Shown: piece by piece, positions 8,887 through 28,897 of the stretch
Layout of the letters: each line of letters begins with the position of its first letter
How positions within the stretch are numbered: position 1 is the stretch's first letter
From: a virus
Strand: one strand, 5' to 3'
DNA: 64,000 nt
Virus record (IMG/VR): IMGVR_UViG_3300044961_000262
Coordinates: 1 to 64,000 of that record
Program-made: the position numbers and the translations under genes
Notes under the pieces: generated by a model
Databases searched by the model: none
Told to the model about the DNA's origin: nothing
Seen by the model: the letters and a program-made list of their open reading frames with translations, nothing else

Positions 8887-10797
8887 TTATAATAATTGTA
8901 TTTGTCCTATCTGTCTTATACTATTAACCCATTCCTTAGCTTTACTTATATAATAACTATAATCAATATCATAATCATTAAAATTATCAGGAAAATAAGC
9001 TTTATTGAAATAAGTAACTTTCCATTCTTTTAATAATTTATTTCCTTTCATTATAGGAGCTTCTACTTGAGCAAAACTATTATCTTCATAAAACTTAATT
9101 AAAGTTGAACCTTTTTTAGAAATAAAGTATCTTACAGTTTTAGATAATTTTTGTTTAATAACTTTACCGTTTTCTACTTTCCATATTTCATAGTGAGAAG
9201 CTCCTTTTTTGTCAGATTTTTTAGATTTAACTCCTGCACAAAAATCAAAAATATTTCTATGATTTTTAATTGTAGTTTCAACGGGTACATTATTTACCCA
9301 ATATTCGTAAAAAGCTAAAGGTATAATAGAATAAGATTTGTTTTTATGTAAAGGAATATCTTTAAATTCACACCTTCCTTTAGTTTTAACTTTACCGTTA
9401 CTATATATTGCAAGATAGTTGTTTACATCAAAAATAACCATTTTAGAATATTCAGCATATTCAAGTTGAAGATGTGTTATTGACATCCAGTTATTGCATA
9501 TTTGATAGTAAGTATTTAATTGAGATCTAGGAATTTTTAAAGTAAGACCATCAGTATTAATTTGAATAAGATTTGATTTAGGTATATTTAATAATTCTTC
9601 TGCTAACATTGTTAACATTAATTGACCATTAATGGTTGTAGCCATAGTATATTGAGGATCATATAACCAAGAATGTATTTGATTAGAATTACCATACACC
9701 GCATTAGCGGCTTCTTTAAATCCTTCAACAATAGCTTTATTACCTAATTCTTTTTTAGCTTTTTCCGCTAATCTTACATCTACAATTTCTTTTTTATAAA
9801 TATCACAAAACTCCTGACCTAAATGTTTAGGATATAAATTATTAACAATCGCAATTGACGGATATAGCGATGCAACGTCAGCATCGATAATTACATATTC
9901 ATCATCACTTTCAACAAGTTTATTATTAACTGAACCGTGAATACCTCCTTTTCCGTAAACAAATTCAAAGTTTTTATACCAAACAGAAATTTCTTCATCT
10001 TTTTTAGTTCTTGAAATTTCCATTAATTCAAATCTTTCTAAAAGAGATTTAAACTCTAAAGATTTAAATGTAATATATGGAAAAATAATATCTTTAACTT
10101 TAATTAATGGTCTAAATGTTCTTAAACTTCTAACATCTGAAACGTATTTACCTGTTTTTTCGCAATAAAGCTTTAAAAGAATTTCGGATCCTAATTTAGT
10201 ATTTGAATAATTCATACAATTAATTTTGTATAATTTTTTCAAATTCCGTCTTATTTCTAATAAAGAGTTGCTATACTTTAAAAGTTTTTTAGTAGCTATA
10301 ACATCATTTAAGTTATAACTAAGAACCGTTTCTTCCCAATTATTTCCTTCACCTTGACTCGGCATATCTTCGATATTTACCATATCGAGCATAAATTCAC
10401 ACCATTTTAAACCGGTTCTTCTATTTTTATTATCAAAATGATTTAATTTATATAAATCTAAATGTTTATGTCTAAGTTTCCATTCAGGAACATCTGGTTT
10501 TCTATCATTATTTGAAGTAATAATTTGAGCATAACTTTTTATCTCAGAAGGTGTACATTCAGGATACCTATACATAAACTCAATTATTTGAGCATCAAAG
10601 TGTAATGAATTATATCCGATTAATCCTGCAACTTCTGTATTTAAAAATTCAAATAATTCTTTTTTTTCATTTTTAGTTTTACTAAAAACAAATGTTCTAG
10701 TATCATCTGAATCTCTATCTACAAAAGTTGCAGTAAAAATATCAAGAGTTTCTAAATCCCATACCCAGAATTTTTTTTCAATCAACGGAGCTTTCAT
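8887..10797 (-). CDS. Family B DNA polymerase with N-terminal 3'-5' exonuclease
   Basis: WDLET, GYNSLHFD and YNLNDV exo motifs; DVASLYPS, K..ANAVYG and NTDG polymerase motifs. Confidence 0.93.
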   Translation of the reverse strand: MKAPLIEKKFWVWDLETLDIFTATFVDRDSDDTRTFVFSKTKNEKKELFEFLNTEVAGLIGYNSLHFDAQIIEFMYRYPECTPSEIKSYAQIITSNNDRKPDVPEWKLRHKHLDLYKLNHFDNKNRRTGLKWCEFMLDMVNIEDMPSQGEGNNWEETVLSYNLNDVIATKKLLKYSNSLLEIRRNLKKLYKINCMNYSNTKLGSEILLKLYCEKTGKYVSDVRSLRTFRPLIKVKDIIFPYITFKSLEFKSLLERFELMEISRTKKDEEISVWYKNFEFVYGKGGIHGSVNNKLVESDDEYVIIDADVASLYPSIAIVNNLYPKHLGQEFCDIYKKEIVDVRLAEKAKKELGNKAIVEGFKEAANAVYGNSNQIHSWLYDPQYTMATTINGQLMLTMLAEELLNIPKSNLIQINTDGLTLKIPRSQLNTYYQICNNWMSITHLQLEYAEYSKMVIFDVNNYLAIYSNGKVKTKGRCEFKDIPLHKNKSYSIIPLAFYEYWVNNVPVETTIKNHRNIFDFCAGVKSKKSDKKGASHYEIWKVENGKVIKQKLSKTVRYFISKKGSTLIKFYEDNSFAQVEAPIMKGNKLLKEWKVTYFNKAYFPDNFNDYDIDYSYYISKAKEWVNSIRQIGQIQLL

Positions 10798-11018
10798 TTT
10801 TTAATATTATTTCTATCTGTAATTTTGTCCATTAAATGTAATTGAATAGAATCTTTATATTGCAAATAATCTTGATTGTTTTTAATAATATCTCTATCTA
10901 CCCAAATAACACCAGCAAAATAAAAATTTAATGCTATACTACAACAAATTAATATTGTAGTTAACCAAGAAAACATAATCTTTACACTTTCCATTAATTT
11001 TTCTAAAAATTCTTTCAT
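10794..11018 (-). CDS. Small membrane protein
   Basis: Single hydrophobic helix. Confidence 0.55.
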   Translation of the reverse strand: MKEFLEKLMESVKIMFSWLTTILICCSIALNFYFAGVIWVDRDIIKNNQDYLQYKDSIQLHLMDKITDRNNIKK

Positions 11019-11347
11019 TTGTTTCTTATTATTCTAAGTCCACTCTGTAAATCTAACATCTTGACTTCATATTCAGCTTGTAATTTACTACAATTAAAAT
11101 ATTTCATTACTAATTTTACAGCTATATTAAACCATTCATCATGCTGTTTTTGAGTAATTGTAAATTCATTGATGAACATGAATTTTTGTTTAGTTAAATA
11201 TTCTTTAGCTGAATACATTTCAGCAGCTTCATCGATAGTCATATTATGACCCGCTAAAAATAATTGAATATCTAATAAATATCTTACTAAATCACTTTTA
11301 GATTTTTTATTGTTAAAATGAGTTTTCATCGTATCTTTTATCTTCAA
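11015..11347 (-). CDS. Hypothetical protein
   Basis: Operon-packed ORF. Confidence 0.55.
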   Translation of the reverse strand: MKIKDTMKTHFNNKKSKSDLVRYLLDIQLFLAGHNMTIDEAAEMYSAKEYLTKQKFMFINEFTITQKQHDEWFNIAVKLVMKYFNCSKLQAEYEVKMLDLQSGLRIIRNK

Positions 11348-11648
11348 TTGATGCTTCTAAAAGTAGTAAATAATTAATTAAATCTCCTATTTTTTCAGAA
11401 GTTAATTCTCTTTTAGGAATTTTTCCTTCATTTACTTCTTTAACTATATCCATTACAGATACTAAATGTTTAAGTGCAAATCCAAAAAGACATTTTTCTC
11501 GAGATTCTCCTGTTATTTCGGCAGCTTTATTAAAGTTATGTAATCTATCTTCATCTCCTTTAGCGTATTCTTTAGCTTTTTCTATAAGAATACGTTTACA
11601 TTCATTTAAACGATAATTAATTACTTCATCAAATTTTTCCGTCGTCAT
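11313..11648 (-). CDS. DUF1599/MazG-like all-alpha nucleotide-associated protein
   Basis: KAKEYA...DRLHNF...K.GDLINY pattern. Confidence 0.6.
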   Translation of the reverse strand: MTTEKFDEVINYRLNECKRILIEKAKEYAKGDEDRLHNFNKAAEITGESREKCLFGFALKHLVSVMDIVKEVNEGKIPKRELTSEKIGDLINYLLLLEASIEDKRYDENSF

Positions 11649-11988
11649 ATTCTTTAACTATTTCATTAATAGTTTTTTCAACGTCAAAAGGCGCGGAAGA
11701 AATATTTTTAATAATTAACATATCTTTTATCTTAGAAGTATTAACTGAATAATAATTTCTTTTTTTAAAAACATTAGGATAAGAAGCTTGAAAAGCTCCT
11801 TTAATTGAAGCTGGAGCTTTTTTATATAAATTCGTTAATATTTTATTACCTTTAATTGCATTTTTAATAAATAAATCTTCAGTTTGAGTTTGTTCAATTG
11901 TTTTTTCAGTATTAATTTTTTGTAATTTATTAACTATTGTATTTACAATTGCATTAATTTCCTGGCTGTTTAATTGTTTCATTTTCAT
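11629..11988 (-). CDS. Hypothetical protein
   Basis: Operon-packed ORF. Confidence 0.55.
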   Translation of the reverse strand: MKMKQLNSQEINAIVNTIVNKLQKINTEKTIEQTQTEDLFIKNAIKGNKILTNLYKKAPASIKGAFQASYPNVFKKRNYYSVNTSKIKDMLIIKNISSAPFDVEKTINEIVKEYDDGKI

Positions 11989-12611
11989 AATAATTTTAAT
12001 TGTTGTATTTCTTTTCTACGATCTTCATAAAAAGTAAATATTAAATTTCTATCTTCATAATTTTGTACAGGTGTAAATAAAGAAAGTCCTCCGCTAATAT
12101 ATCGAACTTCATCGTCAATAATTTTACCCTGTTCCACAAGAGTATCTTCAAATACTTTTACATAAGCAAAACTCATATTAGTATTATCCATAGTTTGATT
12201 ACCATAAGGAAAACACCAATTTAATTGAATTACCGTAGGATAATCTTTAAACACCGGAATATCATCTATATTTTCAGAAAAATATTGGTGTAAAAATTTT
12301 ACTACTTTAGCTCTTGTAAATTTTCCTCCTTTTTGAGAATAAAAAATTTGACCATTAATCGGAGAGTATTTAGGAGTACCTATACTTCTTTTATTTGCGA
12401 TAATTCTTTCATTATTTTCATCTAAACAGAAGCCTAAAGGATCCACATTGTATCCTTTTTTTTCTAACCATTTAGGTATCTTATCGATTCTTTGTTTTCC
12501 TTTTAAAGTAGAGTAGTATTTAGCTCTTCTACTTAAAGATAGAGGAACTTGAGTTGGATATTTAGGAAATTCTTTTACGTAAACATTTTTAAAATATTTA
12601 GGGTCTAGCAT
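11985..12611 (-). CDS. RusA-like Holliday junction resolvase
   Basis: D.tN...K..ED.L.....I.DD acidic catalytic pattern. Confidence 0.65.
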   Translation of the reverse strand: MLDPKYFKNVYVKEFPKYPTQVPLSLSRRAKYYSTLKGKQRIDKIPKWLEKKGYNVDPLGFCLDENNERIIANKRSIGTPKYSPINGQIFYSQKGGKFTRAKVVKFLHQYFSENIDDIPVFKDYPTVIQLNWCFPYGNQTMDNTNMSFAYVKVFEDTLVEQGKIIDDEVRYISGGLSLFTPVQNYEDRNLIFTFYEDRRKEIQQLKLL

Positions 12612-13574
12612 TTATTCTTCAATTAATAATTGGTTAATAAGTAATAAATCCGATTCTGTTATTTCTTCAGAAATAGATTCTTCAATTTTTGGTTTTTCAG
12701 ATTTAGTTGGTAATTCATCTAATAATATATATGTGTCAGCTAAATCTCTACTTCCTTCTTTAATATTAAAAAGTTTTAATAAATCATTACTTACTATTTT
12801 ACTAAATAGTTTATTAATTCTATCATAGTCATCAAGACTTTTAATTTCAATTTTTGAAATAAAATTTTCTTCTATAAAATCAAACTTTTTACTGTATTTA
12901 AAATCTATTGTATTTTTTTCACAGAAAGCTTGAATCTCAGATGTTAATAATATATCACTTTCATTTTCTTTTAAATAAACAGTAATTAAATCTTTCCATT
13001 TAATAACGCTTCTAGTTATAAAATTTAATGTAAATTGATATAATTTTTCTGGATTTACTGTTATTATAGCTAAAACTTCATATTCATTAAAGATAACGCC
13101 ATTACTCATACCATATCCTAAATTCTGAAATGTAAATCCAGAATCTAAACATTTTATAAAATACTCTAAAAAATGTAAGCTACTATATTTAGTATATTTG
13201 TGTATATCTAAATTTATAGCTTCAATATAATTAATTGAATTAACTAAACTTTTTATATACGATAATGATGATGAATGATTATCGTTATAGCGACTATTTT
13301 CAAAATTAATATTTAAATCTTCTAACTTTGATAAAAATAAGTTTTTTTGACTTTTAGACCATTTAGTTTTTGGTACAATTTTGGGTAAATAAGTAATTGA
13401 ACTAAAATCAATAAAACATATAGGAAGAACATCTTTATTTAAAAGATTATTATTGCTATCTAAAAATTTAATATTCGGTAAATTATCTCTATAATGTCTT
13501 TTCCAATTTCTTAAATCAGAAGTTAAATTTTCAATATTGAAATCTGATAACGGAGTAATACTATAAGTTCTCAT
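12612..13574 (-). CDS. Hypothetical protein translationally coupled downstream of E1
   Basis: 320 aa; overlaps the E1 stop by 14 nt; no motif recognised. Confidence 0.7.
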   Translation of the reverse strand: MRTYSITPLSDFNIENLTSDLRNWKRHYRDNLPNIKFLDSNNNLLNKDVLPICFIDFSSITYLPKIVPKTKWSKSQKNLFLSKLEDLNINFENSRYNDNHSSSLSYIKSLVNSINYIEAINLDIHKYTKYSSLHFLEYFIKCLDSGFTFQNLGYGMSNGVIFNEYEVLAIITVNPEKLYQFTLNFITRSVIKWKDLITVYLKENESDILLTSEIQAFCEKNTIDFKYSKKFDFIEENFISKIEIKSLDDYDRINKLFSKIVSNDLLKLFNIKEGSRDLADTYILLDELPTKSEKPKIEESISEEITESDLLLINQLLIEE

Positions 13575-14229
13575 AAGTCATAAATTCAAATAATGGTATA
13601 TCGTAAGTTGTTTTAAAGGGAAGTTCTAATATGAAATCCGGATCTTTTTTCATAGTAATATAATTAGTAAAAGCTCCTGTCATTATGGCGGCAATTAACG
13701 CTCCGCTATGAGTTGTAGCTTTTGCAGAACAAGGTTGATCCTGAACTTCATTATCATTGAATAAAGTGGATTCGTATTTTTTTTCTAGTCCTTTCGTAAC
13801 AATATAAATTTGACCTGACTGTAGTAACATTCTGCCGTCAATAAAAATTTCTCTGTTTTCTAAAGCTGACCACTTTTCAAACATTAATTTTCTTGCTGCC
13901 ATATTATCGAATGCACTAAAACATATTGGAGTTACAAAAGAAGAACTTTGAAATTTACCTAAATTTATCATATTAGTTCCTTTACAGAACATATCGTTAT
14001 TAAATTTAGAAGCTTCAAATTTACTTTTACCTACTTGATTATAAGAATATAATTGACCTCCTATATTAGGTTCGTCTATTATATCGTATTCGTAAGTTAT
14101 CATTTTACATTCTAATCTTGATAGAAAAAGGGATAGGTATGATCCTATTCCCCCAATTCCACCAAGAGTTATTTCTGTTCCCGGACTATAGAACGGGGCT
14201 TCAGAAAATCTAACTGTTGTTTCTTTCAT
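13561..14229 (-). CDS. E1-like (ThiF/MoeB family) Ubl-activating enzyme
   Basis: N-terminal RFS Arg finger, GIGGIGS loop, DIIDEPNIGGQ, FDNMAAR, IDGR, candidate catalytic Cys167 (QPCSAK). Confidence 0.9.
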   Translation of the reverse strand: MKETTVRFSEAPFYSPGTEITLGGIGGIGSYLSLFLSRLECKMITYEYDIIDEPNIGGQLYSYNQVGKSKFEASKFNNDMFCKGTNMINLGKFQSSSFVTPICFSAFDNMAARKLMFEKWSALENREIFIDGRMLLQSGQIYIVTKGLEKKYESTLFNDNEVQDQPCSAKATTHSGALIAAIMTGAFTNYITMKKDPDFILELPFKTTYDIPLFEFMTYENL

Positions 14230-15332
14230 TACATTCTCATGCTATATTGTCTTTCAAAATCTGTTTCAATAAAATCTTCAAAAACACTTTCAAAGCATCC
14301 AGTTATTGTAGGTACTACGCTGAAATTTGAATATTGAGTGCTTTCTGTTAAAATTTTGTATCCTTCTTCACACATCGAAATTAAATCTGATTTTCTATCA
14401 TTAAATGTCAATCCTTTTTGTAAATATTCAGAATAAATCATGTTATATTTATAAGAAAAAGTGAAATCATTTGATAAATCTTCTTCACATTTTTCAATAA
14501 ATTTCCAGTTTTTACTATAATGCGATTCGATTTCAGCTAAATGCGCATATAATGTATCTACTTCTTTACAATTAATAAATTTCTTAAAATATTTACGTAA
14601 TAGAAACTTTATAAAATTAATAGCGTTAGTATCTTTACTTAAAGTTGATAAATTAATTTTAGTATTATTCACGTTTTTTTTACTCAATACTGGTTTATTT
14701 GTAGTCTGAATCCTATTAACTTGATTTACAAAGAATTCATCTATTTCTTCAGAATAAAGTACTTCAATGTCCATATTATAATAAAAGACAACTTCTTCTT
14801 CTGAAGATAGTATTTTTTTCATTTTACCGTTTTTACCTTTAAAAATAAATTCTTTCGGTTTTATTTTTCCCATAAAAGCTACTCTAGCTGTCATTTCCAT
14901 TTTATTATTTACAATTAATGATAAATAATAGTCATAGTTTGGAGCATTTTCTTGTAACTCTTCATTGTCGGTACCTGAAAAAAATACCGACATTAGATTA
15001 TGTGAATGCACATGTGAAATACTGTAATTTAGTAGTTCAGGTTTTTCAGTAATTGCATTTATATAATCTTCATTAAATTCATATGAAGTGTATCCTGAAG
15101 TACCTTTATCCATCGGTAAAATGTATTCGGCTTTTAATTCGAAACTTTCAGGTCTGTCAATGAATCCTTTACTTGAATGAAAAAGTACACCTGACCATTC
15201 TACATCTGGAATTTCCGAACATAAAAGTTTAATTTGTTCGTAAACTTTATTAGATATAAGAAGTTTAGGTTTATTTTCCAGAAGATAGAGCTTCGGCAAC
15301 GATTTTTGTAAATTTGACGTAGTTGAGTTCAT
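14229..15332 (-). CDS. JAB/JAMM metallo-isopeptidase with C-terminal extension
   Basis: E45 (EWSG) ... H109-S-H111-x7-S119-x2-D122, the canonical JAMM motif. Confidence 0.88.
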   Translation of the reverse strand: MNSTTSNLQKSLPKLYLLENKPKLLISNKVYEQIKLLCSEIPDVEWSGVLFHSSKGFIDRPESFELKAEYILPMDKGTSGYTSYEFNEDYINAITEKPELLNYSISHVHSHNLMSVFFSGTDNEELQENAPNYDYYLSLIVNNKMEMTARVAFMGKIKPKEFIFKGKNGKMKKILSSEEEVVFYYNMDIEVLYSEEIDEFFVNQVNRIQTTNKPVLSKKNVNNTKINLSTLSKDTNAINFIKFLLRKYFKKFINCKEVDTLYAHLAEIESHYSKNWKFIEKCEEDLSNDFTFSYKYNMIYSEYLQKGLTFNDRKSDLISMCEEGYKILTESTQYSNFSVVPTITGCFESVFEDFIETDFERQYSMRM

Positions 15333-16533
15333 TTAATTTTGTGTTTATTTGTTTAATAATATAATTTTTAATTTTAGGGTGAGCTATCAAAGTAGAATAA
15401 TCTATTAAAGATTTAGTTTCTTTTTCTTTATCGGAAATTCCTGAATAAATTTTTAAGTCTATATATTTTTCTTTAAACTTTTCTAATAAATTTATTGTGT
15501 TTACACATTTATATTCCTCATATTTTTCATTAGAAAAGATTTCAAAATTTCCTTGAGAAAGTTCTTTACCTATAACTGTTGAAATTTTATTAATTAGAGG
15601 GGTAATTAAATTAACATCTACTTCTAATTTATTTTTTACAAGATTATATGTAAGAAACAATTCATTTTTATATCTTATGAGAAATCTTTTTAAATTTTTT
15701 TTTAAAATTATATTAGATAAGTTTAATCCAGTATTATCACCTATAGATTGAATTCTAATATAAGGCCCTCCTTCTAAAGATTCCCATCTAACATAGGCAT
15801 CTAAAGTTGTAAAAAATGAAAGAATGAGTTCATCCGAATCAAGCTTTATATGTCTAAAATTGCTTATTGGGGTATTTTCACCTAAACAAAAATTATGATA
15901 TGAGGTACTATTTCTTGGACGCAAATGTGAATGCAAATAATTTGAATTATATTCCTTTAAACTAAGATGTCCTCTCAATCCTTTTATATTTGAAATACAA
16001 CCTTCTTCAAGATTTAAATTTACATAAAGTTCTTTTATTAAATGCTTTTTACCATGACTATTTTCAATAATAATTTCAGGATATAATATTGTAAAGTCAA
16101 ATTCATTAAAATCTACAAATTCTTCACCATAATATTCAACGGCTAATCTTTTAATATTATTAAATACTTTTTTTGATTCATTATTTATATGATCTAAATA
16201 GTTTTTTATATCTTTTTCAAGTGATTCTTCTGTATATCCTGAATTTGTATTTTCATTTGTTTTGTAGTCATAATTAATATTGTACAAAACGTTAATATCT
16301 AAAATATTTTTTACAGACAATGTTATATTACCTGAGTTTACATAATATATCGAATTAGATTCATAATTATCAAAAAAATGTATTTTGTCTAAATTATCTT
16401 CTGAATAATTATTTAAAACAAATTCTTTAAATTTTACACAAACAGAAATGTATTCATCATCTTCGTTTTTTTCTGACACTACTATAAATATTTCACTAAA
16501 ATAATTTTCATCAAAACTTCGAAGTAATCTCAT
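15271..16533 (-). CDS. Prokaryotic E2-like (UBC fold) conjugating enzyme
   Basis: YLHSHL (HxH flap) followed by FC216LG, then ESLEGGPY; lies between Ubl and JAB. Confidence 0.72.
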   Translation of the reverse strand: MRLLRSFDENYFSEIFIVVSEKNEDDEYISVCVKFKEFVLNNYSEDNLDKIHFFDNYESNSIYYVNSGNITLSVKNILDINVLYNINYDYKTNENTNSGYTEESLEKDIKNYLDHINNESKKVFNNIKRLAVEYYGEEFVDFNEFDFTILYPEIIIENSHGKKHLIKELYVNLNLEEGCISNIKGLRGHLSLKEYNSNYLHSHLRPRNSTSYHNFCLGENTPISNFRHIKLDSDELILSFFTTLDAYVRWESLEGGPYIRIQSIGDNTGLNLSNIILKKNLKRFLIRYKNELFLTYNLVKNKLEVDVNLITPLINKISTVIGKELSQGNFEIFSNEKYEEYKCVNTINLLEKFKEKYIDLKIYSGISDKEKETKSLIDYSTLIAHPKIKNYIIKQINTKLNELNYVKFTKIVAEALSSGK

Positions 16534-16546
16534 ATTTTTTTTTTAT

Positions 16547-16579
16547 AAAAAAAAAGAGAGAAATTAATCTCTCTTTTTT
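16547..16579 (-). terminator. Terminator-like hairpin between Ubl and E2
   Basis: A9-GAGAGA-AATTAA-TCTCTC-T6; bidirectional. Confidence 0.7.
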
Positions 16580-16591
16580 ATTTTAATTTAA

Positions 16592-16981
16592 TTATTTTAA
16601 TTCATCAGCTAATCTTTTTAATTCAGCAATGCTGATATCATCGGTTTCTTGCGGATCACCGAATTCTCCAGATTCAACTTCATCGATAATTTCATCAAAA
16701 GCATTGTTGATTTTTTCACGTAAAGAAACCATTAAATCTACAATACTTAACGATCCCGATTTAACGCTAATAGGAGTTGCTATAATAGTTAAATCTCCTG
16801 TAAATAATTCCGCAGCAGCAGCTTCTAACGTTACTTTTCCTGGAATCATTGTGTATTTTAAAGTAGACTCTAAAAGTTCTTTATCTCTTAATGTTTCACG
16901 TAATTCTCCCCAAGTAGTAGCTGAAGAATTAAATGTTTCTTTTTTATTCTTTGATTGAATAAATACTGTTATTTTTCTCAT
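16592..16981 (-). CDS. Ubiquitin-like (beta-grasp) protein precursor: 76-aa domain ending VKSG plus a 53-aa acidic tail
   Basis: Beta-beta-alpha pattern (RKITVF, ETFNS, TWGELRETL), terminal strand LTIIATP, Gly at residue 76; first gene of the E2-JAB-E1 cluster. Confidence 0.75.
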   Translation of the reverse strand: MRKITVFIQSKNKKETFNSSATTWGELRETLRDKELLESTLKYTMIPGKVTLEAAAAELFTGDLTIIATPISVKSGSLSIVDLMVSLREKINNAFDEIIDEVESGEFGDPQETDDISIAELKRLADELK

Positions 16982-17951
16982 TGTTAATTAATTTTTTTGT
17001 TAGTTCTTCTCCATGAAGATAATAAAAGTCGGATATATCTTTGGCACCAAGATATCCCTTTTTTCTTGCCCATAATTTTTCAGTTAAAAAAAGAGGTTTA
17101 GTTCCGTAACTTTTTCTCATTTGCCAACCAAAGTGTATTCCTGCATTATCATAATCAGATAAAGTAAAAATGTTCTTGCTTATTTTTTCTAAATCTTTCA
17201 TTTGATTTTCAGTTAATATTACGCTTTCTGCTTGTGGAGCTACAGAAGGTATATTAAACTTATGTAAAGTTCCTACATCTTTGTAAGACTTCGTGATTAC
17301 TAAAAAGTCACATTTTTTAGGTAATAAATGTTTACCCTGTAAAGTTTCCTTAGATACGTTACCTAAAAATCTATACTCTTTTCTTTTAAAAAAATAAAAT
17401 TTCCATTTATTATTGTCAAAATAATATCCAATACAAGGATCTTCGTCACGATAATAATATATTAATCGTCCATTATCATCCCATATTTTGTCAATATAAA
17501 ACCATTTAGCGAGTTTTATAAACTCTGATGTAACACCATAAAATTTACAAAAATTTACACCAATGTTATTAAATTTTTTAACTTTAACTTTAAAACTCTT
17601 ATCGATTTTATTTAAGGATGGTTTTTTAATAATAATATTTTTAGTCGGTATATTTTTAAGATAAAATACTTCATAAATCTTTTGTAAAGCTTTATAATAA
17701 GATAAATTATCTACTTCCATAACTACAGAAACGCAAGTGTAAGTTTTGTTTATTGCAAAATCTTTAAAAAATAAGACTCCCGCATTCCAATAGAAACTAC
17801 ATCCAACTTTATTATCAACTCTTAAAGGATTAGTAAATTTTTCTGTTAAAGAACAGAACCCTAGATATTTCTCATAAACTTCTTCTTGACTGACTCTATC
17901 AAAGAGCCAGTCAAAAGAAATTTCAAGCGGTATTTCGGGGTATCCGTACAT
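16944..17951 (-). CDS. DNA primase (DnaG-like, TOPRIM)
   Basis: NPLRVD..VGC N-terminal region; VITKSYKDV, APQAE, DYDNAG and KDISD motifs typical of crAss-like primases. Confidence 0.85.
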   Translation of the reverse strand: MYGYPEIPLEISFDWLFDRVSQEEVYEKYLGFCSLTEKFTNPLRVDNKVGCSFYWNAGVLFFKDFAINKTYTCVSVVMEVDNLSYYKALQKIYEVFYLKNIPTKNIIIKKPSLNKIDKSFKVKVKKFNNIGVNFCKFYGVTSEFIKLAKWFYIDKIWDDNGRLIYYYRDEDPCIGYYFDNNKWKFYFFKRKEYRFLGNVSKETLQGKHLLPKKCDFLVITKSYKDVGTLHKFNIPSVAPQAESVILTENQMKDLEKISKNIFTLSDYDNAGIHFGWQMRKSYGTKPLFLTEKLWARKKGYLGAKDISDFYYLHGEELTKKLINNEKNNSIYSIKE

Positions 17952-17962
17952 TCTTTTTTTTA

Positions 17963-18499
17963 CTAAAAATCTAAATCAGCATTACTGGCGGTAATTTCAG
18001 CTTCTGACGAAGCATTAACTGATTTAATCAATTTAGGTTCTTCAGATTTACTAATACTTAAAGTAGGTTCTTTCATGTTTTTAACAGTTGGGTCATATTT
18101 AGGCATTTCTAAATATCCTTTATCGTTATAAAGTAATTTGATTTGCAACTTAGTAGTAGCATAATTACCTAATGAACGAATAAATGATGTAGCACAATCT
18201 TCCCAAGAATTAAAATTTGTTTGAAATTCATTTCCTGTAACTTCTTTTACGATGCGTTTAAGACGTTTCATTTGAGAAATAATCTTTTTTTCGTCATTAT
18301 CTGTTACTGGAAATTCAGTATGAGTATAGGTTTGACCCAACTCACCTTCAAATGTAATTCTTATTACGGTTTTGTCGGATGTTCCATCTTTTTTAGCATT
18401 TTCAAATGCTACTGTTTTAATTACTACATTGTTGTTAATACCCACATCAAATAGTGGGGTATCTCTGTTTAACTCAACGTTGTTTGCTCCGTATGACAT
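17963..18499 (-). CDS. Putative single-stranded DNA-binding protein
   Basis: Beta-rich, acidic/aromatic C-terminus (ADLDF); located between primase and AAA ATPase. Confidence 0.6.
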   Translation of the reverse strand: MSYGANNVELNRDTPLFDVGINNNVVIKTVAFENAKKDGTSDKTVIRITFEGELGQTYTHTEFPVTDNDEKKIISQMKRLKRIVKEVTGNEFQTNFNSWEDCATSFIRSLGNYATTKLQIKLLYNDKGYLEMPKYDPTVKNMKEPTLSISKSEEPKLIKSVNASSEAEITASNADLDF

Positions 18500-18508
18500 A
18501 TTCTAAAA

Positions 18509-18751
18509 TTAAATCGATGATTCTTGAACAGGTTGGTCATTAAAGATTTCTTCATTACTAGTGTTAGTAATTACTTCATCTACAATAGAATAACGTTTTT
18601 CACGTTTCTTCTTAATTGTAAGATTAAGCTGTTTAGCTATATCTCTAATTTCTCTTTCACTCAATTGCCATTTTTCGGCAAGTTCTTTAGAACTTAATTC
18701 GTTGTTTACGTCAGCAGTAAACGCTGCTTTTGTTACGATAATTTTACTCAT
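18509..18751 (-). CDS. Small HTH-like protein
   Basis: SSKELAEKWQLSEREIRDIAKQL helix-turn-helix pattern. Confidence 0.55.
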   Translation of the reverse strand: MSKIIVTKAAFTADVNNELSSKELAEKWQLSEREIRDIAKQLNLTIKKKREKRYSIVDEVITNTSNEEIFNDQPVQESSI

Positions 18752-18757
18752 ATTTAT

Positions 18758-19414
18758 TTATTTATTAAATTCTATTATTTTTTGAAAAACTTCATTTGTA
18801 TCATTAGGAATTTTCATTACACTTTCTCCAAATAAATCCGGAGGACATTTAGCTGAATTAGTTCCGTCATTTACTAACGTAAAAAAATATTCAGGTTTAC
18901 CGTCAGGTTGAGGTTTTGCTTCTGTGAAAAGTACAATGGTATAATCTTTTTCGAACATTCCTTCCCACTCTTTACCTTTGCATTTTACACGTCTTTCTCT
19001 ACTTCCTGATAATTCATCCTGAATGATTTCATAATGAGCTGTAACAAAAACTTCTTTTTTAGTTTTTTTCACGGCATCATTGAATTTAGCTATACCTTCA
19101 TTATAATGTACAAAAATATCATATCCTCTTTTAGTTGCTCTAGCTTCAGCCATTAATAAATCTGTATAAGCAGAAAATGAATCTATCACTATAGATTCTA
19201 TTTCTGGATTTTTGCTTCCAGAAGCTAAAGCGGAAAGCACCTCTATTGGAGAATTTGGAACAATTGTGTTTTTAAAATTACCTTTAAATGGTAAAGGTTT
19301 GTTTTCTACATTTACAAATAAAGTTTTATCTCTATTCATATTACGCATAGAGTAAGTTTTACCTCTACCCGAAGTTCCTACTAATAGAACTTTATAATAC
19401 GCTCTTTCATTCAT
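18758..19414 (-). CDS. AAA ATPase (Sak4/AAA_24-like)
   Basis: GTSGRGKT Walker A, IVIDS Walker B, SAKCP C-terminal motif. Confidence 0.85.
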   Translation of the reverse strand: MNERAYYKVLLVGTSGRGKTYSMRNMNRDKTLFVNVENKPLPFKGNFKNTIVPNSPIEVLSALASGSKNPEIESIVIDSFSAYTDLLMAEARATKRGYDIFVHYNEGIAKFNDAVKKTKKEVFVTAHYEIIQDELSGSRERRVKCKGKEWEGMFEKDYTIVLFTEAKPQPDGKPEYFFTLVNDGTNSAKCPPDLFGESVMKIPNDTNEVFQKIIEFNK

Positions 19415-19420
19415 ATTTTT

Positions 19421-20491
19421 TTAAATTTGATTGTAATTAATTTCTGATGGTTTCGGCAATTCTGAAAAATAATTAATTGCACCGTTAAACTTTAAATGTA
19501 CATATTTATTTGCGCAACCGTAATGTCGATCTTTTAACACCTTTAAGGCTCGATATTTATCGCCAAGTTTAGATATATCATAACCTCTATAATATTGAAT
19601 ATTATATCTTGCTGGTGCAAAAAGACCTAATACTACATCCGCATCTCTTTGACACTCTTTGTTGTTAGCCAAACCATCTAATGAAGGTTCTAACTTTTCT
19701 TCAATGGTTTCTCCACGGTAAAATTCTTGTTTTTCTTTTGCCGACTCTTGTTGCTGAATGTTAATTGTAATACAATGGTATTTTTTGCAAAATTTCTTTA
19801 AACAGTATTGCTTAGAAAACATTCCCATTGTTTCATGTAAACTTAGACGTGAACCTTCTATGTTTTCTTGTGATAGTAAACTTATATGGTCAGTTATAAC
19901 GAATACCCACAAGTTTTCATCAGTATATTCATATCCCTTAGCTTCAGTATTATCTGAATCATGTATTTCTTTTCCTGTTTCAGGATTATCGAAATATCGT
20001 TTTACATGTTTATAAATACCTGTTGGATTTGAAACGTGGTCTATTACTTCTATGTAATTTTCCATATCTGTTACAATATTTTCACATTCAGCTATTTTTT
20101 CTATTACTGATTCTTCTAAATTAAAGTTACCTAATGATTTTAATTGGCTTGGTGATATATTAATTTGATATTTTTCGTATAAAATCGTAGATATGATACC
20201 TAACCAAAAATCCTCTTTAGTTTCTTCTAAAGCAAAATAAAATATTTTGTATTTTAGGTGAGGATTAGATTTAATGAATTCGTAAACTGTTGTAATTGAT
20301 AGAAATTTAGCCAATTTAGTTTTACCAATACCGGAATTTGCAGTAAGTAAATAATACTTACCTTTCTCCCATCCAGGAAAACTTTCAGAAAATCTTTTAA
20401 AGGGAAAAACAATACTATTTTGTTTACCTTCATCTTTATTTTTCTTATTAGTTTTGATTTTTTGATAAAGACTATTAAAAATCTTCTCCAT
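19421..20491 (-). CDS. DnaB-like (SF4) replicative helicase
   Basis: ANSGIGKT, FALEE, ITDHISL, IQQQ, DADVVLGL and KDRH motifs. Confidence 0.85.
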   Translation of the reverse strand: MEKIFNSLYQKIKTNKKNKDEGKQNSIVFPFKRFSESFPGWEKGKYYLLTANSGIGKTKLAKFLSITTVYEFIKSNPHLKYKIFYFALEETKEDFWLGIISTILYEKYQINISPSQLKSLGNFNLEESVIEKIAECENIVTDMENYIEVIDHVSNPTGIYKHVKRYFDNPETGKEIHDSDNTEAKGYEYTDENLWVFVITDHISLLSQENIEGSRLSLHETMGMFSKQYCLKKFCKKYHCITINIQQQESAKEKQEFYRGETIEEKLEPSLDGLANNKECQRDADVVLGLFAPARYNIQYYRGYDISKLGDKYRALKVLKDRHYGCANKYVHLKFNGAINYFSELPKPSEINYNQI

Positions 20492-26369: not shown

Positions 26370-26579
26370 AGTTTTATTTTAAAGTTTATTTTAAAGAATT
26401 TAAATACTCGTACATTTCTTTTGTTTGGGCAAATTTGCAATTTGTAATTAGAAAATATACATCATCATAGCTTGGGTTTAATGATTTGTAATAATCTAAC
26501 ATATCCCGTGTCTGTGCTTTTGGATAATTTACTATTAATCAGCGTAAATTATTTTTTACGTCTATTGTTATGTGAAATT

Positions 26580-26891
26580 TCAGAACCACCCACAAGAAAT
26601 CAATTCTACAATAGTTTTTTCACTATTAACGGTATCATATCGCAATATTTTCCATTTTTTTCCTAATGGTTTAGGTAATGGGAATTTTAATGTTTTCCAA
26701 TCTGCACTATTATTACTATTTGCAATGAAATTATTACAAACAGTAACATCACAATTATAAAAATTTTTTGGTATCTCTATCTTAATTATTTTGCTTGGCT
26801 TCCTAAAGAAACTTCGCACAACATTGGTTTGTGGCAAGTGCGGCTGACGTGGTTTAACCAGATTTAGTAATTCTAATAATCTTCTGTACAT
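26580..26891 (-). CDS. Hypothetical protein starting inside an attC-like hairpin
   Basis: Frame reads ...LPQTNVVRSF... across the AAC core at 26816-26822. Confidence 0.6.
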   Translation of the reverse strand: MYRRLLELLNLVKPRQPHLPQTNVVRSFFRKPSKIIKIEIPKNFYNCDVTVCNNFIANSNNSADWKTLKFPLPKPLGKKWKILRYDTVNSEKTIVELISCGWF

Positions 26892-26949
26892 ATTTTCAAA
26901 ATTTGTGTTTCAAAATCTGCACCTGACCACAAGTTAAGTGCCGTTAGTG
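26816..26949. repeat. attC-like imperfect inverted repeat
   Basis: GCACAAC ... GTTAGTG cores; arms TTTGTGGCAAGTGCGG / CTGCACCTGACCACAAG with one extrahelical base. Confidence 0.55.
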
Positions 26950-26950
26950 A

Positions 26951-27232
26951 TCATTTCTTTTTACGTTCTAACCATTCTATAAAATATTTCATCGCTGCCC
27001 ATCCTTCTGCATCGTAATGAAAAGGTGTGTTCCAATCAGACATTTCTTCATCTCTGTATTGTTCTAACAAAGATTTAATTTCCGCAAGCAACGAACCGCT
27101 AACAGGTTGTTGGCGTAATGTTACTTCCATCTGTCCAATTAAGGTTAGTAAATCATCGTGCTGCCTACCTCTTGCAGTTTTTACTTGCCCAGTTGCTACC
27201 CATTTTCTAAGTATTTCCAAATGTTCTTTCAT
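26951..27232 (-). CDS. Hypothetical protein starting inside an attC-like hairpin
   Basis: Frame reads ...LRQQPVSGSL... across the core at 27097-27103. Confidence 0.6.
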   Translation of the reverse strand: MKEHLEILRKWVATGQVKTARGRQHDDLLTLIGQMEVTLRQQPVSGSLLAEIKSLLEQYRDEEMSDWNTPFHYDAEGWAAMKYFIEWLERKKK

Positions 27233-27289
27233 TCTATTGTAATTTATCGTTAATAATTCACACTACTCCAACCACCAACACATTAGGTG
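27097..27289. repeat. attC-like imperfect inverted repeat
   Basis: CGCTAAC ... ATTAGGT cores; arms 27105-27120 and 27261-27276 are complementary at 13/16 positions. Confidence 0.55.
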
Positions 27290-27306
27290 TAAGTGCTATG
27301 ACACTG

Positions 27307-27528
27307 CTACCAAGCATCATCTGTAATTCTAACATTTAATTTTATTTTACCATCAGACCATCCAATATCGTGATTTTCTTTTTTAACCTCACATCTTTGA
27401 GTATCTATTGGGTAAGGGTATGCACGTTGCATAAGTTCATTTTTTGGAACTTCTTTTTCCACTTCAATTTCAAAAATAAAATCATCAGGAATAGATGAAA
27501 TTAAATCTTTTAATTCTTTGATTGTCAT
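27307..27528 (-). CDS. Hypothetical protein
   Basis: MTIKELK..I..IPDD N-terminus, common in small phage proteins. Confidence 0.6.
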   Translation of the reverse strand: MTIKELKDLISSIPDDFIFEIEVEKEVPKNELMQRAYPYPIDTQRCEVKKENHDIGWSDGKIKLNVRITDDAW

Positions 27529-27728
27529 TTTCGTTTAATTTACCGCACCAGCCACTAACAGCGGTTTGGTGCTATTATTTTACCTAACTTTCTTCTTGCG
27601 GATAAGAACTAATATCGGCAAAAATTCTTTTACCATCAGTGCTTACTCTTAATCTTTCTTCGCTTGGAATATGTATTTCCATTTTCTTATTTATTTAAGT
27701 TGTTAAAAATTCATTTAAAAAGGGCGGC

Positions 27729-27823
27729 GTATAACGGTGGCTAAAATAAATTGTAGCATTTGTTTTTAGATTGAAGTTTTAGATCTCCAAAACCCTAACT
27801 TCTTTAGCCGTAAAAAATTAGCG
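27729..27823. repeat. Degenerate attC-like inverted repeat
   Basis: GTATAAC ... ATTAGCG; arms GGCTAAA / TTTAGCC. Confidence 0.4.
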
Positions 27824-27854
27824 ACAAAGCTATACAACCTTCCAACTATCAATT

Positions 27855-28094
27855 CTAACTAAATATTTCCTTTATATAAATTTTCCATAAATCTTCAATT
27901 CCACCATCATTATCTCTACCTCTTTCAACACGTCTATCCATAAAATACATTTTACCTTTATATAACCTCACATTAGATTGAATTGAAGATGTATTCTTCG
28001 TAATCTATATAATGAAATTAACTGTATCATTATTAACATCAGATATATTCAAGTTTTCTTGGTTTTCTTTGAAACTTTTTATTTTATTTTTCAT
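27855..28094 (-). pseudogene. 80-codon ORF with one internal TAG (codon 30)
   Basis: MKNKIKSFKENQENLNISDVNNDTVNFII*ITKNTSS...WKIYIKEIFS*. Confidence 0.4.
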
Positions 28095-28117
28095 TTTTAA
28101 TTTTATTTACTAATAAT

Positions 28118-28149
28118 AAAAAAAAGAAGTATCCGAAGATACTTCTTTT
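28118..28149 (-). terminator. Intrinsic terminator downstream of tmRNA
   Basis: Minus strand GAAGTATC-TTCG-GATACTTC followed by a T-run. Confidence 0.85.
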
Positions 28150-28191
28150 CCACCTTTTAATCTAATCAAGCATATGACAAAATTTGATTTG

Positions 28192-28569: not shown

Positions 28570-28576
28570 TAAATAG

Positions 28577-28843: not shown

Positions 28844-28867
28844 ATGTTTATTTATTAAAAAATGAAT

Positions 28868-28897
28868 AAAAAGAAGAGTCTTTCGACTCTTCTCTTT
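28868..28897 (-). terminator. Intrinsic terminator
   Basis: Minus strand GAAGAGTC-GAAA-GACTCTTC-TTTTT. Confidence 0.85.

What the first reader, a model, noticed from the sequence alone, without database searches (positions are those of the whole stretch)
13561..16981. Complete phage-encoded ubiquitin-like conjugation cassette (Ubl-E2-JAB-E1) inside the replication operon
Seen in sequence: four contiguous minus-strand genes directly after primase. They encode a beta-grasp-like protein with Gly76, an E2-like protein (H201-S-H203...C216), a JAB protease with an intact E45/H109/H111/S119/D122 JAMM motif, and an E1 with GxGxxG loop, Arg finger and Cys167. Established: this quartet is the minimal activation-conjugation-deconjugation set of prokaryotic ubiquitin-like systems (PRTRC-type loci, Bil, CBASS Cap2/Cap3), which I know mainly as bacterial or defence-associated. 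Inference: a lytic crAss-like phage runs its own protein-tagging pathway during replication, to modify host or phage proteins or to jam host Ubl-based immunity. I cannot confirm how novel this is without a search.
Basis: partly seen in the sequence, partly recalled or inferred. Interest (0 to 1): 0.95.

Follow-up and report, generated by a model that had tools for sequence, protein, structure and literature searches.

The report
Ubiquitin-like tagging genes in crAss-like phage
A crAss-like phage from a hot-spring microbial mat keeps, next to its DNA primase gene, its own ubiquitin-like protein (made with a removable tail), a trimming protease, an activating enzyme and a probable carrier enzyme; such kits have so far been studied only in cells and in bacterial anti-phage defence, and tagging by the phage kit has not yet been shown.

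Summary
The four minus-strand ORFs exist exactly as described, and all cited residues are invariant or nearly so in their families.

- **E1:** passes Pfam ThiF, and its profile matches UBA5, MccB, ThiF and MoeB.
- **Protease:** has an invariant HxH...S..D motif, and 50 of 58 relatives hit Prok-JAB.
- **129-aa protein:** models as a ubiquitin-type beta-grasp. Gly76 is its only invariant residue, and 13 short relatives end 1-4 residues after it.
- **420-aa protein:** has a confident core whose best structural matches are about 45/50 UBC-superfold proteins at only middling Z (5-6.5). No Pfam or NCBIfam E2 model recognises it, so Cys216 as the active site is inferred.

The order Ubl-E2-JAB-E1 holds in all 80 related viral loci, including crAss001 and Flavobacterium Fpv phages. 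The E2-like family has about 3,300 representatives, yet its signature occurs once in 185,579 cellular genomes. A conserved hairpin separates the Ubl gene from the overlapping enzyme genes.

The cassette is not a member of PRTRC, Bil, Bub or CBASS. "ThiF thiamine biosynthesis" annotations are probably misnomers. Conjugation, targets and purpose are untested.

This scan has already noted the same cassette on other DNA (135 notes, at least 103 genomes). The searched literature holds only one passing mention of a phage E1-like fold.

The parts
16592..16981 (-). Ubl precursor gene (129 aa). The mature beta-grasp domain is residues 1-76 (16754-16981) and ends K-S-G76. The acidic helical tail is residues 77-129 (16595-16753).
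   Evidence: AF2 model has pLDDT about 90 for residues 1-70 with a b-b-a-b-b-b layout. Foldseek top hits are BfUbb, ubiquitin and SUMO at prob 1.00, TM 0.6-0.69, rmsd 2.2-3.3 A. G76 is the only invariant column of 73 sequences. 13 homologs of 75-95 aa stop 1-4 residues after the Gly.
16550..16579 (.). Perfect 12-bp hairpin with flanking A/T runs in the 58-nt spacer between the Ubl stop and the E2 start. Terminator- or attenuator-like.
   Evidence: The spacer is conserved: median 66 nt, at least 25 nt in 72/79 loci. 54/59 distinct spacers fold at z <= -2 against mononucleotide shuffles (median z -5.0). 38/59 have a hairpin followed by a T-run.
15271..16533 (-). E2-like protein (420 aa). UBC-like core at about residues 100-270 with Y199-x-H201-S202-H203, F-C216-L-G218 and W-E251-S-L-E-G255-G-P-Y. 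It also has a poorly modelled N-terminal region and an extra C-terminal domain (F353-K354 conserved).
   Evidence: AF2 pLDDT is above 90 over 100-270, pTM 0.70. In VIA-align wide, about 45 of the top 50 are E2/UEV/RWD/Atg3 folds, Z 5.0-6.5, 110-130 aligned residues. The Atlas structure search finds UQ_con (TM 0.50) and RWD. Invariant residues. No Pfam/NCBIfam/PDB sequence match.
14229..15332 (-). JAB/JAMM metalloprotease (367 aa). The MPN domain is about residues 20-190 with E45, H109-x-H111, S119 and D122. The C-terminal half is helical. It overlaps the E2 gene by 62 nt.
   Evidence: Invariant motif. 50/58 family members hit Pfam Prok-JAB, best 1e-5. The window protein alone scores only E 0.06. 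Atlas features score 0.95 to Prok-JAB clusters, with structural TM 0.78-0.87 to viral JAB clusters.
13561..14229 (-). Minimal E1/ThiF-type adenylating enzyme (222 aa, single adenylation domain, no CxxC zinc site). Features: GxGxxG (G24-G29), D49, K70, D108-N-x-x-x-R113, Y152 and C167. Its start shares base 14229 with the JAB stop codon.
   Evidence: Pfam ThiF E 2.2e-10, 40.5 bits against a cut-off of 28.1. The family profile against PDB gives UBA5 2e-14, then MccB, ThiF, MoeB, NAE/SAE/UBA1 and Cap2. Invariant residues.
12612..13574 (-). Orphan 320-aa gene overlapping the E1 stop by 14 nt. It occupies the positionally conserved, hypervariable 'fifth gene' slot.
   Evidence: No homolog among 5.8 billion proteins. 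A co-directional gene follows E1 in 68/69 loci. An HMM built from some of these genes covers 38-40 of 70 and hits nothing else in the loci. Three clusters link at 90-93% by hhalign, while ORF320 links only at 25% to one small cluster.
16944..17951 (-). DNA primase (context). Its 3' end overlaps the Ubl start by 38 nt.
   Evidence: PHROG 12622 DNA primase, E 2.8e-25. A primase homolog lies within the fetched flanks in 78 loci and is the immediate upstream gene in 30 of 79.

Best explanation
This is a phage-encoded ubiquitin-like protein conjugation operon, a distinct and essentially phage-restricted lineage of the E1/E2/Ubl/JAB kind.

Proposed mechanism; the parts are shown, the chemistry is inferred:
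1. The Ubl is translated as a precursor. It is transcribed in excess because a leaky terminator hairpin follows its gene.
2. The JAB metalloprotease cuts after Gly76, releasing the 53-residue acidic tail and exposing the K-S-G carboxylate.
3. The minimal E1, probably a homodimer like ThiF, MoeB or UBA5, adenylates Gly76 with ATP and takes the Ubl onto Cys167 in its crossover region.
4. The Ubl passes to Cys216 of the UBC-like protein. Its H-S-H motif stands where classical E2s carry HPN.
5. Without an E3, the extra domains of the E2-like protein, possibly together with the fast-evolving downstream gene product, select the lysines of the target proteins.
6. JAB may also reverse the modification.

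The cassette lies inside the replication module next to primase across very divergent phages. My best guess is therefore that the targets are phage or host proteins handled during the replication phase. A role against host Ubl-based immunity is equally untested.
For: - E1 identity.
- JAB identity.
- Ubl fold, invariant terminal Gly and precursor-type tails.
- UBC-like fold with invariant Cys, HSH and ESLEGGPY.
- Strict synteny Ubl-E2-JAB-E1 in 80/80 viral loci, and in cultured crAss001 (gp79-gp76) and Fpv1.
- Translational-coupling layout: E2/JAB overlap has a median of -50 nt and JAB/E1 a median of -4 nt, while a structured spacer follows the Ubl gene.
- Size and restriction of the family: 3,303 E2-like representatives, yet a single hit in 185,579 cellular species genomes.
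- Group I introns sit in the JAB gene just upstream of the HxH-coding stretch.
- Established knowledge: the same four activities make a working conjugation pathway in bacterial Bil operons, where JAB matures pre-Ubl and removes conjugates. Bub operons are a related working pathway built from E1, E2, Ubl and peptidase activities (PMC11601596).
Against: - No biochemical or expression data exist. No RNA run was found, which is not evidence either way.
- The UBC assignment rests on a predicted model with Z of only 5-6.5, a range the tool warns can reflect a common arrangement. Foldseek E-values were above 0.1.
- No sequence profile links the protein to any known E2.
- The position of Cys216 in the fold could not be checked residue by residue.
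- Ser202/His203 in the E2-like protein and Tyr152 in the E1 are also invariant, so Bub-type oxyester chemistry is not excluded.
- The Ubl ends in a single Gly, not Gly-Gly.
- The E1 profile aligned to solved E1s only over its N-terminal half, so equating Cys167 with the ThiF/MoeB crossover cysteine is inference from spacing.
- The targets are unknown.
Confidence: 0.65

Rival explanations
1. The same parts work through oxyester rather than thioester chemistry, as in bacterial Bub pathways. The Ubl would be carried on Tyr152 of the E1 and Ser202 (with His203) of the E2-like protein. The invariant cysteines would be structural or regulatory.
For: Y152 in the E1 and S202/H203 in the E2-like protein are invariant. 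Bub E1 uses a crossover-loop Tyr and Bub E2 a Ser/His pair (PMC11601596). The E1 is a single-domain type, like BubD.
Against: Bub proteins characteristically lack the cysteines, whereas here C167 and C216 are invariant. The H-S-H...C spacing mimics HPN...Cys of classical E2s. No DUF6527/BubE protease was detected. The genes are separate, not fused.
Confidence: 0.1
2. The main job of the cassette is counter-defence. The phage JAB strips host Ubl (Bil-type) or cGAS conjugates from phage or host proteins, and/or the phage Ubl/E1/E2 floods or mis-tags host Ubl-based immune machinery.
For: Bacteroidota hosts do carry Ubl-type cassettes: Prok-E2_D/PRTRC occurs in 8 of 301 sampled genomes and in B. 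thetaiotaomicron. The hypervariable fifth gene suggests an arms race. Established knowledge: Bil tags phage tail proteins.
Against: Anti-defence genes are usually small, early and patchy. This cassette is four large genes fixed in the replication module across very divergent phages from gut, marine, freshwater and hot-spring settings. A deconjugase alone would suffice to strip tags. It is not exclusive with the best explanation, which concerns mechanism.
Confidence: 0.15
3. The Ubl is a ThiS/MoaD-like sulfur or acyl carrier activated by the E1 for small-molecule, nucleoside or DNA modification, or for MccB-like peptide chemistry. The 420-aa protein would be a non-catalytic UBC/RWD-like adaptor and JAB only matures the carrier.
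For: The best NCBIfam hits of the E1 are ThiF-type. MccB and PaaA rank high in the PDB profile search. GenBank records call the gene 'thiamine biosynthesis protein ThiF'. JAB plus a sulfur carrier is a known pairing (PMC1779556).
Against: All ThiF/MoeB model scores are far below the curated cut-offs (33.8 against 159 bits). There is no rhodanese, thiazole-synthase or other pathway gene nearby. The terminus is K-S-G, not G-G. The listed top 50 structural matches of the Ubl are ubiquitin/SUMO/ISG15-type, not ThiS/MoaD. An invariant Cys, HSH and ESLEGGPY in the UBC-like protein argue for an enzyme.
Confidence: 0.08

Closest known systems
Bil operons (BilA Ubl, BilB E2, BilC JAB, BilD E1), bacterial anti-phage ubiquitination systems (as summarised in PMC11601596; Iyer et al. 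2006 class 6d, PMC1779556)
   Same: Same four activities on four separate genes. No E3. JAB is expected to mature the pre-Ubl and remove conjugates. Cysteine-based E1 and E2 are expected.
   Different: The phage E1 is a 222-aa single adenylation domain, not the tandem inactive/active domains plus Cys domain of BilD. The phage E2-like protein is 420 aa with extra domains and is unrecognisable to any E2 profile. The Ubl is a single beta-grasp with a cleavable tail. The cassette lies in a phage replication module, not a bacterial defence locus. Direct comparison with Bil sequences was not made here.
PRTRC cassettes of plasmids and integrative elements (PRTRC_C, PRTRC_B = Pfam Prok-E2_D, PRTRC_A, PRTRC_ThiF)
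   Same: A mobile-element-borne set: a roughly 72-aa protein ending in Gly (all ten seen end GTKG), a Cys-bearing E2-like protein (VCMG against the phage FCLG) and a small single-domain E1 directly after the E2. The phage E1 HMM finds PRTRC ThiF at 1e-9 to 6e-17. 27/58 phage JABs hit PRTRC_A weakly.
   Different: All scores are far below the curated cut-offs. hhalign gives 0.3% for E2 against PRTRC_B and 0.1% for Ubl against PRTRC_C. PRTRC_C has no tail. Gene order and partners (PRTRC_E, a 408-aa protein) differ.
Type I Bub operons (BubAB, BubCD, BubE; formerly 6E.1), PMC11601596
   Same: Single-domain homodimer-type E1. JAB cleaves a Ubl precursor after a conserved Gly. Invariant Ser/His in the E2 and Tyr in the E1 crossover region also exist in the phage proteins.
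   Different: Bub has Ubl-E2 and JAB-E1 fusions, a DUF6527 serine protease and no catalytic cysteines. The phage has separate genes, invariant Cys167 and Cys216, and no DUF6527 hit.
Type II CBASS Cap2/Cap3
   Same: E1 and E2 chemistry plus a JAB deconjugase. Cap2 chains are matched by the phage E1 profile (3e-7; PADLOC E1-E2 1e-4).
   Different: Cap2 is an E2-E1 fusion that conjugates the CD-NTase itself. There is no separate Ubl, and no CD-NTase or effector is present here.
Lambdoid/T1 tail-assembly TAPI (Ubl) plus TAPK (JAB) (PMC1779556)
   Same: A phage-encoded Ubl with a C-terminal extension, processed by a JAB protease.
   Different: That pair has no E1 or E2 and sits in the tail module. 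Here E1 and E2 are present and the cassette sits in the replication module.

Membership tests
Generic Ubl conjugation system (E1 + E2 + Ubl + JAB) | Beta-grasp modifier ending in an exposed or exposable C-terminal Gly | tested here: met
   AF2 plus Foldseek to ubiquitin/BfUbb/SUMO. G76 is the sole invariant column. Short homologs end 1-4 aa after it.
Generic Ubl conjugation system (E1 + E2 + Ubl + JAB) | E1 adenylation domain with a nucleotide-binding loop and catalytic Asp/Arg | tested here: met
   Pfam ThiF above the gathering score. PDB profile hits to UBA5, ThiF and MoeB. G24, G26, D49, K70, D108 and R113 are invariant.
Generic Ubl conjugation system (E1 + E2 + Ubl + JAB) | E1 catalytic cysteine in the crossover loop | tested here: inconclusive
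   C167 is invariant and lies 59 residues after D108, about the ThiF/MoeB spacing as I recall it. The HMM alignments to solved E1s stop at profile position 130.
Generic Ubl conjugation system (E1 + E2 + Ubl + JAB) | UBC-fold E2 with an active-site Cys | tested here: inconclusive
   Fold: about 45/50 top VIA matches are the UBC superfold, but Z is 5-6.5, Foldseek is weak, and the Atlas gives UQ_con TM 0.50. C216 is invariant, but its place in the fold was not verified residue by residue.
Generic Ubl conjugation system (E1 + E2 + Ubl + JAB) | JAMM motif E...HxH...S..D in an MPN fold | tested here: met
   The profile against PDB sequences did not reach MPN chains.
Generic Ubl conjugation system (E1 + E2 + Ubl + JAB) | ATP-dependent covalent intermediates and isopeptide conjugates | not testable with these tools
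   Needs biochemistry or mass spectrometry.
PRTRC system | PRTRC_ThiF (TIGR03736) at or above 144.75 bits | tested here: not met
   25.1 bits for the window E1. The family best is E 7.6e-12, still below the cut-off. A true PRTRC ThiF scores 237.6 bits.
PRTRC system | PRTRC_B / Prok-E2_D type E2 | tested here: not met
   0 of 100 members hit it. hhalign probability is 0.3%.
PRTRC system | PRTRC_A and PRTRC_C | tested here: not met
   PRTRC_A scores 13.6 bits against a cut-off of 101.8. The window Ubl gave no PRTRC_C hit, and hhalign of the phage Ubl against PRTRC_C gives 0.1%.
Bil (BilABCD) | Four separate genes: Ubl, E2, JAB, E1 | tested here: met
Bil (BilABCD) | [quoted passage not shown] | tested here: not met
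   The E1 is 222 aa with one ThiF domain spanning residues 20-193. The architecture requirement is taken from PMC11601596.
Bil (BilABCD) | Sequence membership of E2, JAB and Ubl in the Bil families | not tested
   No Bil sequences were fetched. PADLOC gave no hit for E2, JAB or Ubl, but I did not verify that this PADLOC release contains Bil models.
Bub type I | Ubl-E2 and JAB-E1 fusions plus a DUF6527 protease | tested here: not met
   The genes are separate. No DUF6527 hit appears among the cassette or the neighbours scanned.
Bub type I | No catalytic Cys; Tyr/Ser oxyester chemistry | tested here: inconclusive
   C167 and C216 are invariant, but so are Y152 and S202/H203.
ThiF/ThiS thiamine sulfur-carrier pair | ThiF equivalog score; Gly-Gly carrier; thiamine pathway neighbours | tested here: not met
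   33.8 bits against a cut-off of 159. The terminus is K-S-G. The neighbours are replication genes.
Type II CBASS Cap2/Cap3 | E2-E1 fusion with a CD-NTase substrate | tested here: not met
   E2 and E1 are separate genes with JAB between them. The only PADLOC matches are weak hits of the E1 to the E1 part of E1-E2 models.

The most novel reading that the evidence does not exclude
Bacteriophages of the crAss-like assemblage, including cultured gut phages crAss001 and DAC15 and fish-pathogen phages Fpv, run their own complete ubiquitin-like conjugation pathway during infection. It would be built around a UBC-like enzyme family found essentially only in phages, and would covalently tag phage or host proteins to control replication or defeat host immunity. 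This would be the first virus-of-bacteria-encoded E1-E2-Ubl-DUB cascade, and an independent, very large branch of the ubiquitin world.
Probability: 0.55. Interest if true: 0.9.

Novelty: new variant of a known kind. Interest (0 to 1): 0.8.

Why it matters
Ubiquitin-type conjugation in prokaryotes is currently understood as sulfur metabolism plus a handful of bacterial anti-phage systems (CBASS type II, Bil, Bub). Here the same logic appears on the virus side, fixed in the replication module of a huge phage assemblage. That assemblage includes members of the most abundant phage group of the human gut.

If active, the cassette would be:
- a new layer of phage control over the infected cell, or a mirror-image weapon against Ubl-based immunity;
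- a new, minimal and experimentally tractable E1/E2/Ubl/DUB set, since cultured carriers exist in crAss001/B. intestinalis, DAC15/B. thetaiotaomicron and Fpv/F. psychrophilum;
- a UBC-like family that no profile library recognises.

It would also correct a widespread misannotation ("thiamine biosynthesis protein ThiF", "metalloprotease", "hypothetical protein").

Tried and rejected
- **Sequence links for the E2-like protein:** Pfam and NCBIfam scans of 100 family members gave no UQ_con, Prok-E2_* or PRTRC_B hit. A 150-sequence profile against all PDB sequences gave nothing at E <= 10. hhalign against ten real Prok-E2_D/PRTRC_B proteins gave probability 0.3% and aligned only FCLG on VCMG. The ESM Atlas feature hits to Prok-E2_D clusters (0.86-0.88) are below the tool's trust level and were not confirmed.
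- **JAB profile against PDB sequences:** this found only helical noise on the C-terminal half. The JAB assignment rests on the motif, Pfam hits of relatives and the Atlas.
- **Ubl profile against PDB sequences:** nothing meaningful. hhalign against PRTRC_C gave 0.1%.
- **PADLOC:** only weak CBASS E1-E2 hits for the E1 and none for the other three.
- **ORF320:** no homolog in 5.8 billion proteins, not significant against the fifth-gene HMM (E 0.35), and only 25% by hhalign to one small cluster. I do not claim it is a member of a conserved fifth family.
- **RNA evidence:** no RNA holder was listed for this DNA, and read laying was not used. Rfam found no RNA family in 10000-20000.
- **Promoter scan:** uninformative, with 57 sites against 53.8 expected.
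- **Literature:** eight searches found no description of the cassette. The only trace is one sentence in a 2026 gut-virome preprint noting a phage protein family with a UBA5-like fold (10.64898/2026.03.05.709809). Subscription journals and supplementary tables were not searched.
- **Not attempted:** an E1 phylogeny against ThiF, MoeB, Cap2, Bil and Bub.

Full report
**1. Observation**

The window is the first 64 kb of an 83.8-kb IMG/VR virus record judged 93% complete. It is AT-rich (about 25-30% GC). Its DNA occurs in hot-spring and microbial-mat metagenomes.

The large terminase is 32-34% identical to those of crAss-like phages and Flavobacterium Fpv phages. Portal and major head proteins fall in the matching PHROGs. 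It is therefore a distant crAss-like phage. Whether it is strictly lytic was not tested.

They sit inside a replication module:
- upstream: DnaB-like helicase, Sak4-like annealing protein and primase;
- downstream: a RusA-like resolvase and a DNA polymerase.

**2. What each gene is**

*E1 (13561-14229).*
- It passes Pfam ThiF above the gathering score (E 2.2e-10).
- A profile of 61 phage relatives matches solved UBA5 (2e-14), then MccB, ThiF, MoeB, the NEDD8, SUMO and ubiquitin E1s, and Cap2.
- G24, G26, D49, N55, Q59, K70, D108, R113, R133, Y152, C167 and K170 are invariant, and R7 is above 90%.
- It is a minimal single-domain enzyme of 222 aa without CxxC zinc motifs, as the sequence shows directly.
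- It reaches no curated NCBIfam cut-off for ThiF, MoeB or PRTRC_ThiF. The GenBank label "thiamine biosynthesis protein ThiF" on its relatives is probably a misnomer.

*JAB (14229-15332).*
- On its own the window protein hits Prok-JAB only at E 0.06.
- In 58 relatives, H109, H111, S119 and D122 are invariant and E45 is above 90%.
- 50 of the 58 relatives hit Prok-JAB, best 1e-5.
- The ESM Atlas places the N-terminal 200 residues with viral Prok-JAB clusters (score 0.95, structural TM 0.78-0.87).
- The C-terminal half is helical and unassigned.

*Ubl (16592-16981).*
- No profile library recognises it.
- An AlphaFold2 model built on 73 relatives has pLDDT about 90 over residues 1-70 and a b-b-a-b-b-b layout.
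- Its Foldseek matches are BfUbb, ubiquitin, SUMO and ISG15, at probability 1.00, TM 0.6-0.69 and rmsd 2.2-3.3 A over about 75 columns.
- Gly76 is the only invariant column; K74 is above 90%.
- Thirteen relatives of 75-95 aa end one to four residues after this Gly (KSGK, KSGF, KAGK, KSGTSI and others).
- The other relatives carry unrelated tails of 50-210 residues.
- This is the signature of a modifier made as a precursor and matured by cleavage after the Gly.

*E2-like (15271-16533).*
- No Pfam, NCBIfam, PADLOC or PDB sequence hit exists for this protein, or for 100-150 diverse relatives.
- The family is very large: 3,303 representatives at 50% identity.
- Invariant residues are N158, S202, H203, C216, G218, E251, S252 and G255. 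P152, R187, Y199, H201, P257, F353 and K354 are above 90%.
- The AlphaFold2 model (pTM 0.70) is confident (pLDDT above 90) over residues 100-270. It runs as a long helix, a four-strand meander, a loop carrying H-S-H, a short strand ending at Cys216, then helices.
- Foldseek against the PDB is weak, with E2 enzymes at probability 0.4-0.6.
- The exhaustive VIA-align search returns about 45 UBC-superfold proteins (E2, UEV, RWD, Atg3) among its top 50, at Z 5.0-6.5 with 110-130 aligned residues.
- The Atlas structural search also finds UQ_con (TM 0.50) and RWD clusters.
- I read this as a UBC-like fold with moderate confidence. The Z values are in the range the tool calls middling, and the argument is the homogeneity of the list.
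- I could not obtain a residue-level superposition, so "Cys216 at the active site" remains inferred. The inference rests on its invariance, its place after the meander, the HPN-like H-S-H 13 residues upstream, and a non-significant hhalign match that lays FCLG on the catalytic VCMG of Prok-E2_D.

**3. The cassette is a conserved unit**

Eighty viral contigs were retrieved using only the E2-like signature. With the two annotated phage records (crAss001, Fpv1) that makes 82 loci, which iterative HMMs scored for all four families. The order Ubl-E2-JAB-E1 on one strand holds in every locus:
- 62 loci are intact;
- the rest are truncated by contig ends or have JAB or E1 split by an insertion of about 1 kb.

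Two of these insertions are group I introns by Rfam. One, in Fpv1, carries an endonuclease gene.

The cassette is present in cultured crAss001 (gp79-gp76, annotated hypothetical / hypothetical / metalloprotease / ThiF) and in Fpv1. It is absent from crAss002 of the Intestiviridae. Seventy-four annotated phage records carry the E1 and 70 carry the E2-like core.

In 185,579 cellular species genomes the E2-like signature occurs once, on a 54-kb contig of a Flavobacteriales MAG. In BFVD the relatives are all "uncharacterized protein" of crAss-like phages.

**4. Operon anatomy**

- E2 and JAB overlap (62 nt here; median -50 nt across loci).
- JAB and E1 abut or overlap (median -4 nt).
- E1 overlaps the next gene by 14 nt here.
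- By contrast, the Ubl gene is separated from E2 by a spacer: 58 nt here, median 66 nt, and at least 25 nt in 72 of 79 loci.
- In the window, that spacer holds a perfect 12-bp hairpin flanked by A and T runs.
- 54 of 59 distinct spacers fold with z <= -2 against mononucleotide shuffles (median -5.0), and 38 have a hairpin followed by a T-run.

I infer a leaky terminator or stabilising hairpin that gives more Ubl message than enzyme message. This would fit a substrate-over-enzyme stoichiometry. It is an inference from structure, not from RNA data.

**5. A fifth gene?**

A co-directional gene follows E1 in 68 of 69 loci. These genes diverge very fast:
- BLAST splits them into many clusters.
- An iterated HMM unites 38-40 of 70 and hits nothing else in the loci.
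- hhalign links three clusters at 90-93%.

The window's ORF320 has no homolog among 5.8 billion proteins. It links only weakly (25%) to one small cluster. The slot is conserved, but homology of this particular gene is not shown.

**6. Comparison with known systems**

The activities and gene set equal those of bacterial Bil operons. However, the phage E1 lacks the tandem-domain and Cys-domain architecture, and the E2-like protein is much larger and unrecognisable by sequence.

I fetched real Prok-E2_D loci from Bacteroidota. They are PRTRC cassettes with the order PRTRC_E, PRTRC_C, a 408-aa protein, PRTRC_B (= Prok-E2_D), PRTRC_ThiF.
- PRTRC_C is a 72-aa protein that always ends GTKG.
- PRTRC_ThiF is a small E1 that my phage E1 HMM detects at 1e-9 to 6e-17.
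- PRTRC is thus the nearest analogue on mobile elements.
- All membership scores fail, and profile-profile comparisons of E2 and Ubl are null.

Bub type I shares the single-domain E1 and precursor processing. It differs in its fusions, its serine protease and its Cys-free chemistry. Because Tyr152 and Ser202/His203 are invariant alongside Cys167 and Cys216, Bub-like oxyester chemistry is kept as a rival.

**7. Novelty and verdict**

Eight full-text searches found no description of this cassette. One 2026 virome preprint mentions in a single sentence a gut-phage protein family with a UBA5-like fold.

Within this scan the cassette has been noted many times on other DNA (135 notes in at least 103 genomes). 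Earlier follow-ups reached similar conclusions. My conclusions rest on the tests above, which were made before I read those notes.

I class it as a new, phage-borne variant of a known kind of system, containing an uncatalogued UBC-like family. The identities of the E1, JAB and Ubl are firm. The E2 assignment is probable. Conjugation, chemistry, targets and biological purpose are untested.

Noticed in passing
window 16550-16579: A perfect 12-bp palindromic hairpin with A/T runs lies between the Ubl stop and the E2 start. A structured spacer at this junction is conserved in most related loci (54/59 at z <= -2).
   Followed up: yes
L032 7274-7529; L061 7395-7848; also L002 6713-7708, L008, L017, L025, L030, L060: The JAB gene is split just upstream of the HxH-coding stretch by insertions of about 0.4-1.1 kb. 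Two are group I introns by Rfam (82.8 and 79.5 bits). In Fpv1 the insert carries an annotated endonuclease on the opposite strand. E1 is likewise split in L017, L019 and L025.
   Followed up: partly
window 12612-13574: This 320-aa ORF overlaps the E1 stop and has no detectable homolog in 5.8 billion proteins. It sits in a positionally conserved but hypervariable slot after E1. Its weak Pfam hit to Latrotoxin_C (E 5e-4, below cut-off) was not pursued.
   Followed up: partly
L101-L110 (Bacteroidota genomes): Pfam Prok-E2_D genes in Bacteroidota are PRTRC_B. PRTRC_C proteins (72 aa) all end exactly in GTKG, consistent with a ready-made Ubl-like modifier. The cassettes lie next to a TIGR03299 phage/plasmid-like protein.
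   Followed up: partly
L084/L085 (Flavobacteriales MAG contig, 54.5 kb): This is the only cellular-genome hit to the E2-like signature. The open frame is 710 aa. It is probably a phage contig binned into the MAG, or a prophage.
   Followed up: no
L008 4703-5149 and 5221-5694: Two tandem Ubl genes precede the E2-like gene in one 114-kb viral contig.
   Followed up: no
L031, L049, L074-L080 (E2-like of 662-698 aa); L001, L035, L048, L050, L052, L059 (E1 of 381-486 aa): Some lineages have large N-terminal additions on the E2-like protein or C-terminal additions on the E1 (crAss001 gp76 is 383-385 aa). The domain content was not examined.
   Followed up: no
window 26567-35089 (earlier first-reader notes): Other first-stage notes on this genome report a possible tmRNA with a long tag, hammerhead and twister ribozymes, an attC-like array and a DnaA domain IV protein. 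None was examined here.
   Followed up: no
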